DNA from: Escherichia virus TH58
Direction: 5' to 3' (one strand)
Length of the DNA stretch: 64,000 nt
Sequence record: MT446423.1
Shown: piece after piece, positions 35,163 to 35,848 of the stretch
Layout of the letters: every line of letters starts with the position of its first letter
How positions within the stretch are numbered: the first letter of the stretch is position 1
Program-made: the position numbers and the translations under genes
Notes under the pieces: model-generated
What the model was told of the DNA's origin: nothing
Databases searched by the model: none
What the model saw: only the letters and a program-made list of their open reading frames with translations

Positions 35163-35393
35163 ATGTCTACTGAAACTATCGAAAAACTGCAGTCTGAAAT
35201 CGTTACTCTGAAATCTCGCATTCTTGATACTCAAGACCAAGCAGCTGCTATCCAGCAAGAATCTCAGCAACTTGGTAGTGCTCTTGCTAAAATCGCTAAT
35301 CTGGTTGGTATCACTGGCGAATCAGTTAAGATTGATGACCTGGTAGAAGCAGTACGTGAACTTGTTAAAGCTGAAACCACAGAAGAAGAATAA
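35163..35393 (+). CDS. 57A: tail fibre assembly chaperone gp57A
   Basis: 76 aa helical protein; sequence and position as T4 gp57A. Confidence 0.75.
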
Positions 35394-35848
35394 TGAAATT
35401 TGAGGACTTTTCACAAGGCCTCTACGTCGCAGCTAAGTTTTCAGAATTAACACTTGATGCGCTGGAAGACCTCCAGCGTAAATTAAGAATTCCTAATCCA
35501 GTACCACGTGAAAAGCTTCATTCAACGATTTGTTATTCGCGTGTAAACATACCATATACTACATCTAGTGGTAGTTATTCTATTGCCGAATCAGGTCACT
35601 TTGAGGTATGGAAAACTGACGACGGCGCTGTACTGGTTTTAGTTCTTGATTCTGAATATCTTAGATGTCGTCATCAGTATGCACGAGCTTTAGGTGCTAC
35701 TCATGATTTCGACGACTACACTCCACATATAACGTTATCATATAACGTTGGCCAACTATCATTCAGTGGTGATGTAGCTATTCCGGTTATTCTCGACCGT
35801 GAATACAAAGAACCCTTAAAACTAGATTGGGCCGAAGATCTAAAATAA
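35393..35848 (+). CDS. 57B: 2H phosphoesterase (gp57B / Acb1-like anti-CBASS nuclease)
   Basis: 151 aa with two H-x-T/S motifs (LHSTICY and PHITLSY) typical of the 2H fold; position of T4 57B. Confidence 0.65.

What the first reader, a model, noticed from the sequence alone, without database searches (positions are those of the whole stretch)
35393..35848. 57B-position protein carries both 2H-phosphoesterase motifs (Acb1-type anti-CBASS nuclease)
Two H-x-T/S motifs (HSTI near residue 43, HITL near residue 120) at the usual spacing define a 2H phosphoesterase. T4 gene 57B has been reported, as I recall, to encode Acb1, which degrades cyclic oligonucleotide immune signals. A second candidate counter-defence gene by synteny is the vs.4-position ORF (50184-50447), where T4 Vs.4 is a reported Acb2-type cyclic-dinucleotide sponge; I see no diagnostic motif there, so that call is positional only.
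Basis: partly seen in the sequence, partly recalled or inferred. Interest (0 to 1): 0.45.

Follow-up and report, generated by a model that had tools for sequence, protein, structure and literature searches.

The report
Phage anti-CBASS genes acb1 and acb2
This stretch of a T4-like (Mosigvirus) phage genome carries ordinary, already described copies of the two T4 genes that disarm the bacterial CBASS alarm: an enzyme that cuts the cyclic-nucleotide signal (Acb1) and a sponge that soaks it up (Acb2/Vs.4). The only oddity is one amino-acid change in the sponge's binding pocket.

Summary
ORF 35393-35848 (+, 151 aa) is the orthologue of T4 gene 57B, which encodes Acb1. It matches Pfam Acb1 over its full length (E 1.8e-58), matches the solved Acb1 structure 7T26 (E 7.9e-59) and is 85% identical to T4 Acb1. 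All nine published catalytic and substrate-contact residues are conserved (H43/T45/H112/T114 = T4 H44/T46/H113/T115). It lies in the T4 gene order 1-57A-57B-ip. The identical protein occurs on 170 public contigs, and UniRef already names it "Anti-CBASS protein Acb1".

The vs.4-position ORF really starts at ATG 50181, not 50184, and encodes 88 aa. It is a true Vs.4/Acb2 homologue, not merely a positional call: PDB 7UQ2 E 5e-29, Pfam Acb2/Tad1 hairpin E 5.8e-18, 66% identity to T4 Vs.4.

There is one wrinkle. The cGAMP-contacting His of T4 Vs.4 (H11) is Leu here, through a single A-to-T change at 50215. All 59 other T-even homologues examined keep His, but the founding Acb2 of phage PaMx33 naturally has Leu at that column.

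Verdict: a correct identification of already known genes. Interest is low.

The parts
35393..35848 (+). acb1, the orthologue of T4 gene 57B: a 151-aa 2H-phosphoesterase that degrades CBASS cyclic oligonucleotides
   Evidence: Pfam PF23474 Acb1 E 1.8e-58, profile positions 1-144 of 144. PDB 7T26 Acb1 E 7.9e-59. 85% identity to T4 NP_049750. The exact sequence is on 170 contigs and is named Acb1 by UniRef.
35519..35527 (+). First catalytic motif, H43-S44-T45 (T4 H44/T46)
   Evidence: Codons CAT TCA ACG. They align to T4 and FBB1 H44-x-T46. The catalytic role is from PMC9117128.
35726..35734 (+). Second catalytic motif, H112-I113-T114 (T4 H113/T115)
   Evidence: Codons CAT ATA ACG. They align to T4 and FBB1 H113-x-T115.
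35822..35845 (+). C-terminal lid, residues 144-151, LDWAEDLK, including the stacking residue W146
   Evidence: T4 residues 145-152 are LDWADDLK, so 7 of 8 are identical. The lid closes over bound cGAMP in the FBB1 structure.
35163..35393 (+). Gene 57A (tail-fibre chaperone), the upstream synteny anchor. Its stop codon overlaps the acb1 ATG (TAATG).
   Evidence: Pfam GP57 E 5.9e-23. T4 gene order 1-57A-57B-ipI. The overlap is read directly from the sequence.
34424..35158 (+). Gene 1 (dNMP kinase), a synteny anchor
   Evidence: Pfam DNMK E 2.5e-96.
35927..36190 (+). Internal head protein gene (ipI position), the downstream synteny anchor
   Evidence: PHROG 7673 internal head protein E 7e-49. T4 and SSE1 annotation.
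50181..50447 (+). vs.4/acb2: an 88-aa cyclic-dinucleotide sponge (Acb2 family).
   Evidence: PDB 7UQ2 T4 Vs.4 E 5.3e-29. Pfam PF24729 Acb2_Tad1_hairpin E 5.8e-18. 66% identity to T4 Vs.4. ATG at 50181.
50214..50216 (+). Codon 12 of vs.4, CTC (Leu), where T4 (H11) and all other T-even homologues examined have His
   Evidence: Phage JS09 has CAC, so the difference is a single A-to-T change at 50215.
50724..51182 (+). regB endoribonuclease, a synteny anchor for the vs region
   Evidence: Pfam REGB_T4 E 2.8e-69. The T4 order is vs.4-vs.3-regB.

Best explanation
The window comes from a Mosigvirus, an RB69/JS09-like T-even phage of E. coli and Shigella. It carries the same two anti-CBASS genes as T4. 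(1) ORF 35393-35848 encodes Acb1, a small metal-independent 2H phosphoesterase. By orthology, it binds CBASS cyclic di- and trinucleotides that contain at least one adenosine (3'3'-cGAMP, cUA, cAAA) in a U-shaped pocket. Aromatic residues Y11, W73, F106 and W146 stack on the bases and E140 reads the adenine. The adenosine 2'-OH is positioned for attack on the 3'-5' bond, and the H43/T45/H112/T114 tetrad carries out acid-base catalysis. The ring is opened to a linear product via a cyclic-phosphate intermediate, so the CBASS effector is never activated. (2) ORF 50181-50447 encodes Vs.4/Acb2. By orthology it forms a hexamer that sequesters three cyclic dinucleotides, each held between two protomers by Y9 and F82 stacking and by K24, R79 and S74 contacts. 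It lacks both cA3-pocket residues of PaMx33 Acb2 (Q61 and Q68 in place of R67 and T74), so, like T4 Acb2, it is predicted to bind dinucleotides only. What is shown here: homology, conservation of functional residues, and synteny. What is inferred: enzymatic activity, oligomeric state, ligand spectrum and the in vivo anti-CBASS effect.
For: Acb1: the Pfam Acb1 match is full length (196.8 bits, cut-off 27), and PDB 7T26/7T27 match at E 7.9e-59 over residues 9-148. Identity is 85% to T4 57B and 64% to FBB1 Acb1. All nine functional residues named in PMC9117128 are conserved, and the lid is 7/8 identical. The ORF is intact and full length. The gene order 1-57A-acb1-ip matches T4. [quoted passage not shown] The exact protein is on 170 contigs and UniRef names it Acb1. 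Acb2: PDB 7UQ2 at E 5.3e-29, and Pfam PF24729 at 65.3 bits against a cut-off of 27. A profile of T-even homologues also reaches PaMx33 Acb2 (8H2J/8IXZ) at E 2e-6. T4 residues Y8, T12, K23, L29, F33, A66, A73, S74, A77, R79 and F82 are all conserved. The order vs.6-vs.5-vs.4-vs.3-regB matches T4, RB69 and JS09.
Against: No biochemistry exists for this exact pair of proteins, so function rests on orthology. The de novo fold check failed: single-sequence AlphaFold2 gave pLDDT 38.6. In Vs.4, the T4 H11 position, which hydrogen-bonds cGAMP, is Leu here. It is His in 15/15 cluster members and 44/44 wider homologues, so affinity or specificity may differ. The central third of Vs.4 (residues about 38-69) is strongly diverged from T4. 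Many GenBank records label the Acb1 orthologue 'RNA ligase' or 'hypothetical protein'.
Confidence: 0.93

Rival explanations
1. The 57B-position protein is a generic 2H-superfamily RNA-end enzyme (a LigT-like 2'-5' RNA ligase or cyclic phosphodiesterase acting on RNA 2',3'-cyclic phosphate ends), as the common 'RNA ligase' database label implies, and not an immune-signal nuclease.
For: PHROG 755 is labelled 'RNA ligase', and several RefSeq records copy that name. There is a weak match to Pfam 2_5_RNA_ligase2 (E 0.012, 16.1 bits).
Against: The 2_5_RNA_ligase2 match is well below its cut-off of 27 bits, whereas the Acb1 model scores 196.8 bits. The 85%-identical T4 protein was purified by activity as the cGAMP-degrading factor, and its deletion abolishes cGAMP hydrolysis in infected cells. 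The nucleobase-stacking residues and the lid specific to cyclic-oligonucleotide capture are all conserved. The 'RNA ligase' name is a superfamily-level label, not a tested function.
Confidence: 0.03
2. The Vs.4/Acb2 copy in this genome is functionally altered by H12L: either weakened as a cGAMP sponge or re-tuned in ligand preference. It might have been selected by a decoy-nucleotide guard system such as Panoptes, which is triggered by Acb2 nucleotide binding.
For: T4 H11 contacts cGAMP. The column is His in 59 of 59 other T-even homologues, down to 45% identity. This exact sequence is seen on a single contig only. Panoptes escapers of T4 map to acb2, including the binding-site change F82C. 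Another natural Mosigvirus variant (phages FL18/JM17) carries Y9H at the stacking Tyr.
Against: [quoted passage not shown] H11 was not among the residues shown by mutagenesis to be needed; the binding-pocket and screen residues tested were Y8, T12, S74 and F82. All other binding and hexamer-interface residues are intact. One substitution in one genome is equally compatible with drift.
Confidence: 0.12
3. The Leu codon at 50214-50216 is a sequencing or assembly error, or a mutation that arose during laboratory propagation, and says nothing about biology in nature.
For: It is a single-nucleotide difference (CAC to CTC) from the closest relative JS09. The protein sequence occurs on only one contig among about 15 billion proteins.
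Against: The gene differs from JS09 at five other nucleotide positions, so this is an independent lineage rather than a resequenced JS09. Nothing in the sequence context (no homopolymer run) suggests an error hotspot. The question cannot be resolved without the reads.
Confidence: 0.1

Closest known systems
Phage T4 Acb1 (gene 57B, NP_049750.1; Hobbs et al. 2022)
   Same: 85% identical over the full length and the same length apart from one N-terminal residue. Identical catalytic tetrad, stacking residues, adenine-reading Glu and lid. Same genomic position between 57A and the ip gene.
   Different: 23 substitutions, none at a residue with a published function. The start codon overlaps the 57A stop by 1 nt (TAATG) rather than by 4 nt as in T4.
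Erwinia phage FBB1 Acb1 (PDB 7T26 apo, 7T27 with 3'3'-cGAMP)
   Same: 64% identity and E 7.9e-59 over residues 9-148. The HxT/HxT tetrad, Y12, W147 and E141 equivalents are conserved.
   Different: FBB1 has F and Y where T4 and this protein have W73 and F106; both are conservative aromatic swaps.
Phage T4 Vs.4 / Acb2 (PDB 7UQ2; Jenson et al. 2023)
   Same: 88 aa, 66% identity, E 5.3e-29. The N-terminal 37 and C-terminal 19 residues are nearly identical. Y8, K23, S74, R79, F82 and the hexamer-interface residues are conserved. Same position between vs.5 and vs.3.
   Different: H11 is replaced by Leu. The central helix-loop region (about residues 38-69) is heavily diverged. D61/T68 of T4 are Q61/Q68 here.
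Pseudomonas phage PaMx33 Acb2 (p26; PDB 8H2J, 8H2X, 8IXZ)
   Same: Same Pfam hairpin domain, reached by the T-even profile at E 2e-6. The Y11/K26 dinucleotide-binding pair is conserved. It shares Leu at the column where T-even phages otherwise have His.
   Different: Only distantly related (T4 versus PaMx33 is 24% identical). PaMx33 also binds cA3 through R67 and T74, and both residues are absent here (Q61, Q68), so no trinucleotide binding is predicted.
LigT / 2H phosphoesterase superfamily (Pfam 2_5_RNA_ligase2)
   Same: Two HxT/S motifs on a 2H-type scaffold. This is the source of the 'RNA ligase' database label.
   Different: The match is sub-threshold (16.1 bits against a cut-off of 27). 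Acb1 has its own Pfam family, and its demonstrated substrates are cyclic oligonucleotides.

Membership tests
Acb1 (Pfam PF23474; anti-CBASS 2H phosphoesterase) | Full-length sequence match to the family model above the curated threshold | tested here: met
   196.8 bits against a cut-off of 27, profile positions 1-144 of 144. PDB 7T26 at E 7.9e-59.
Acb1 (Pfam PF23474; anti-CBASS 2H phosphoesterase) | HxT/HxT catalytic tetrad aligned with T4 and FBB1 H44, T46, H113, T115 | tested here: met
   Window H43, T45, H112 and T114 fall in invariant alignment columns. Their role is from PMC9117128.
Acb1 (Pfam PF23474; anti-CBASS 2H phosphoesterase) | Nucleobase-stacking aromatics (Y12, W74, F107, W147), the adenine-reading E141 and the C-terminal lid | tested here: met
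   Y11, W73, F106, W146 and E140 are present. The lid is LDWAEDLK against LDWADDLK in T4.
Acb1 (Pfam PF23474; anti-CBASS 2H phosphoesterase) | Compact 2H phosphoesterase fold | tested here: inconclusive
   Single-sequence AlphaFold2 gave pLDDT 38.6 and is unusable. The fold is inferred instead from 64% identity over 140 residues to the crystal structure 7T26.
Acb1 (Pfam PF23474; anti-CBASS 2H phosphoesterase) | Conserved T-even genomic position (gene 1 - 57A - 57B - ip) | tested here: met
Acb1 (Pfam PF23474; anti-CBASS 2H phosphoesterase) | [quoted passage not shown] | not testable with these tools
   Shown for T4 Acb1 only. It needs biochemistry and phage genetics for this protein.
Acb2 / Vs.4 (Pfam PF24729 Acb2/Tad1 hairpin; cyclic-dinucleotide sponge) | Sequence match to the family model and to a solved member | tested here: met
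   PF24729 at 65.3 bits against a cut-off of 27, positions 1-58 of 58. 7UQ2 at E 5.3e-29. A profile reaches PaMx33 Acb2 at E 2e-6.
Acb2 / Vs.4 (Pfam PF24729 Acb2/Tad1 hairpin; cyclic-dinucleotide sponge) | Family-wide dinucleotide-binding pair: Tyr (T4 Y8 / PaMx33 Y11) and Lys (T4 K23 / PaMx33 K26) | tested here: met
   Window Y9 and K24.
Acb2 / Vs.4 (Pfam PF24729 Acb2/Tad1 hairpin; cyclic-dinucleotide sponge) | T4-type additional contacts S74, R79 and F82, plus the helix cap T12 | tested here: met
   All are identical in the window protein.
Acb2 / Vs.4 (Pfam PF24729 Acb2/Tad1 hairpin; cyclic-dinucleotide sponge) | T-even-clade His contacting cGAMP (T4 H11) | tested here: not met
   The window has L12 (CTC), whereas 59/59 other T-even homologues have His. 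This does not define the family as a whole, because PaMx33 Acb2 has Leu at that column.
Acb2 / Vs.4 (Pfam PF24729 Acb2/Tad1 hairpin; cyclic-dinucleotide sponge) | Hexamer-interface residues (T4 L29, F33, A66, A73, A77) | tested here: met
   All are conserved: L30, F34, A66, A73, A77.
Acb2 / Vs.4 (Pfam PF24729 Acb2/Tad1 hairpin; cyclic-dinucleotide sponge) | Second pocket for cyclic trinucleotides (PaMx33 R67, T74), a feature of a subset of members only | tested here: not met
   Window Q61 and Q68; T4 has D61 and T68 and does not bind cA3. The prediction is a dinucleotide-only sponge.
Acb2 / Vs.4 (Pfam PF24729 Acb2/Tad1 hairpin; cyclic-dinucleotide sponge) | Hexamer formation and nanomolar binding of 3'3'-cGAMP | not testable with these tools
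   Needs analytical ultracentrifugation (AUC) or size-exclusion chromatography (SEC), plus ITC, on the purified protein.

The most novel reading that the evidence does not exclude
The H12L change in Vs.4/Acb2 sits at a ligand-contact residue that is otherwise invariant among T-even phages. It could be an adaptive re-tuning of the sponge, for example lowering affinity for guard-system decoys such as the Panoptes 2',3'-c-di-AMP while keeping 3',3'-cGAMP binding. Together with the Y9H variant in phages FL18/JM17, it would then be a natural trace of the sponge-versus-decoy arms race within Mosigviruses.
Probability: 0.07. Interest if true: 0.45.

Novelty: already known. Interest (0 to 1): 0.1.

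Why it matters
Little is new here. The result confirms that RB69/JS09-type Mosigviruses carry the same two-layer anti-CBASS kit as T4, a signal nuclease plus a signal sponge. There are two practical uses. First, annotation: many GenBank records still call these genes 'RNA ligase' or 'hypothetical protein'. Second, host range: a phage with intact acb1 and acb2 should resist many CBASS systems. Conversely, it should be exposed to Panoptes-type guard systems that fire when cyclic nucleotides are depleted (PMC12657218, PMC13577387). The single H12L change in the sponge is a cheap, testable probe of what the T-even-specific His contributes to ligand affinity or selectivity.

Tried and rejected
1. 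Single-sequence AlphaFold2 of the Acb1 orthologue gave pLDDT 38.6 and pTM 0.29, which is unusable, so no fold search was run. The fold is argued from identity to 7T26 instead.

2. Looking up the contig that encodes the exact Vs.4 variant returned nothing, so the source genome and any read-level check of position 50215 remain unavailable.

3. I searched the Hobbs 2022 supplementary files for RB69, JS09, APCEc01, Mosigvirus and SSE1, to see whether this orthologue was listed among the 273 Acb1 proteins. There were no hits in the files held.

4. The sigma-70 promoter scan of 33700-36300 found 10 sites against 9.4 expected, so it says nothing about expression.

5. The two-HxS/T motif pair was considered as stand-alone evidence and rejected. 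It occurs in 4 of 91 long ORFs of the window and in 3.6% of shuffles.

6. I considered whether H12L makes Vs.4 a dead sponge. This was rejected as the default reading because PaMx33 Acb2 carries Leu at the same column and binds cGAMP.

7. The large protein-database searches (search for homologous proteins, the search of protein representatives) were deliberately not run. The PDB, Pfam, phage-collection and cluster look-ups already settled identity.

Full report
**What is at the coordinates.** An ATG-to-TAA ORF occupies exactly 35393-35848 on the + strand and encodes 151 aa. It contains exactly two H-x-[ST] motifs: HSTI at residue 43 (nt 35519-35527) and HITL at residue 112 (nt 35726-35734). 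Taken alone, the motif pair is weak evidence. Four of 91 ORFs of at least 100 aa in this window have two such motifs 55-85 residues apart, and so do 3.6% of shuffles of this protein.

**Identity of the 57B-position protein.** The protein matches Pfam PF23474 (Acb1) over the whole model: E 1.8e-58, 196.8 bits against a cut-off of 27. It matches the crystal-structure sequence of Erwinia phage FBB1 Acb1 (7T26/7T27) at E 7.9e-59 over residues 9-148. Aligned with T4 gene 57B (NP_049750, fetched), it is 85% identical, and it is 64% identical to FBB1 Acb1.

Hobbs et al. 2022 (PMC9117128) identified T4 57B as Acb1 by activity-guided fractionation. [quoted passage not shown] They defined an H44/T46/H113/T115 tetrad, stacking residues Y12, W74, F107 and W147, the adenine-specific E141, and a lid formed by residues 145-152. 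Every one of these is conserved here, offset by one residue: H43, T45, H112, T114, Y11, W73, F106, W146 and E140, with the lid LDWAEDLK against LDWADDLK in T4.

The weak hit to 2_5_RNA_ligase2 (16.1 bits, cut-off 27) and the PHROG label 'RNA ligase' reflect superfamily membership, not a tested function.

**Context.** The window is a Mosigvirus. The region is 94-98% identical at DNA level to many E. coli and Shigella phages. Shigella phage SSE1, whose protein at this locus is 100% identical, is classified Mosigvirus JS09. The gene order is dNMP kinase (34424-35158, Pfam DNMK), gp57A (35163-35393, Pfam GP57), acb1, then an internal head protein (35927-36190, PHROG 7673). This reproduces T4's 1-57A-57B-ipI order. 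The 57A stop and the acb1 start overlap (TAATG), which is compatible with co-translation; that last point is an inference.

The identical 151-aa protein sits on 170 public contigs, and UniRef names it 'Anti-CBASS protein Acb1'. tblastn finds relatives in 1,469 phage records. This is a known gene in a known place.

**The vs.4-position ORF.** The ATG is at 50181, not 50184, which is the following Ser codon. The ORF 50181-50447 encodes 88 aa, the same length as T4 Vs.4. It matches PDB 7UQ2 (T4 Vs.4) at E 5.3e-29 and Pfam PF24729 (Acb2/Tad1 hairpin) at E 5.8e-18, and it is 66% identical to T4 Vs.4. A profile of T-even homologues also reaches the founding Acb2 of Pseudomonas phage PaMx33 (8H2J, 8IXZ) at E 2e-6. 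The neighbours fit: a vs.6-position glycyl-radical protein, vs.5, vs.3 and regB (Pfam REGB_T4, E 2.8e-69).

Jenson et al. 2023 (PMC10097602) showed that T4 Vs.4 is a hexamer binding three cGAMP molecules with a Kd of about 30 nM. The contacts are Y8, F82, H11, K23 and R79, and the interface residues are L29, F33, A66, A73 and A77. All of these are conserved here except H11.

Cao et al. 2023 (PMC10312549) showed that cA3 binding by PaMx33 Acb2 needs R67 and T74. T4 Acb2 has D61 and T68 at those positions and does not bind cA3. The window protein has Q61 and Q68, so I predict a dinucleotide-only sponge. That is an inference.

**The one unusual detail.** Codon 12 (50214-50216) is CTC, Leu, where T4 has H11. 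The closest DNA relative, phage JS09, has CAC, so the difference is a single A-to-T change at 50215. His is present in all 15 other members read from the 90% cluster. It is also present in T4 and in all 43 IMG/VR homologues, down to 45% identity. The exact window sequence is on one contig only.

[quoted passage not shown] H11 was also not among the residues shown by mutagenesis to matter. The change could be neutral drift, an error, or a shift in affinity or selectivity.

The last possibility has context. Panoptes is triggered when Acb2 binds its decoy nucleotide, and T4 escapers carry acb2 mutations, including F82C (PMC12657218). Acb1 likewise triggers type II Panoptes (PMC13577387). I give this adaptive reading a low probability.

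**Mechanism, with its basis marked.** Homology, conservation of functional residues, intactness of both ORFs and synteny are shown here. The following are inferred from the T4, FBB1 and PaMx33 experiments. Acb1 hydrolyses adenosine-containing 3'-5' cyclic di- and trinucleotides by metal-independent acid-base catalysis. Vs.4 sequesters cyclic dinucleotides as a hexamer. Together they blunt CBASS.

**Verdict.** The genes are already known and already named in public databases, so interest is low. The only residual curiosity is the H12L substitution in the sponge.

Noticed in passing
window 50214-50216 (codon 12 of vs.4/acb2): This codon is Leu (CTC) where T4 has the cGAMP-contacting H11. Phage JS09 has CAC, so it is a single A-to-T change at 50215. 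His is present in 59/59 other T-even homologues, but PaMx33 Acb2 has Leu at this column.
   Followed up: yes
protein P0012 (Escherichia phages FL18 and JM17; related Mosigvirus loci, not in the window): These phages' Vs.4 carries Y9H, a change at the pi-stacking Tyr equivalent to T4 Y8, whose Y8A mutant loses cGAMP binding. It is a second natural variant at a ligand-contact residue in the same 90% cluster.
   Followed up: no
window 49605-49967 (+): The 120-aa ORF at the vs.6 position matches the Pfam glycine-radical domain (E 2e-18). It is a GrcA-like spare glycyl-radical cofactor, annotated as such in phage APCEc01.
   Followed up: partly
window 34400-36500 versus relatives (e.g. PP400779.1, OP870146.1): The closest relatives align in two pieces spanning about 2,473 bp against 2,101 bp in the window, so they hold roughly 370 bp more here. 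Several of them annotate two internal head protein genes next to acb1, which suggests a variable ip-gene cassette.
   Followed up: no
window 35871-35878 and 35890-35897: There is a perfect 8-bp inverted repeat, AGGATGAT / ATCATCCT, with an 11-nt loop. It lies in the 78-nt gap between the acb1 stop and the internal head protein gene. There is no T-run after it, and the terminator scan did not call it.
   Followed up: no
window, whole length; e.g. 34801-34808 (+): The T4 late-promoter core TATAAATA occurs 16 times against 7.9 expected. All sites up to 23.1 kb are on the - strand. Five of the six sites from 32.4 kb onward are on the + strand; the exception is 32391-32398 (-). This matches a switch in late-gene orientation. 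One + strand site lies inside gene 1, about 360 nt upstream of 57A and acb1.
   Followed up: no
window 51191-51733 (+): The vs.1-position ORF (180 aa, with a signal-peptide-like N terminus) has a weak, sub-threshold match to the SLT lytic transglycosylase domain (E 0.0017, 18.3 bits against a cut-off of 21.3).
   Followed up: no
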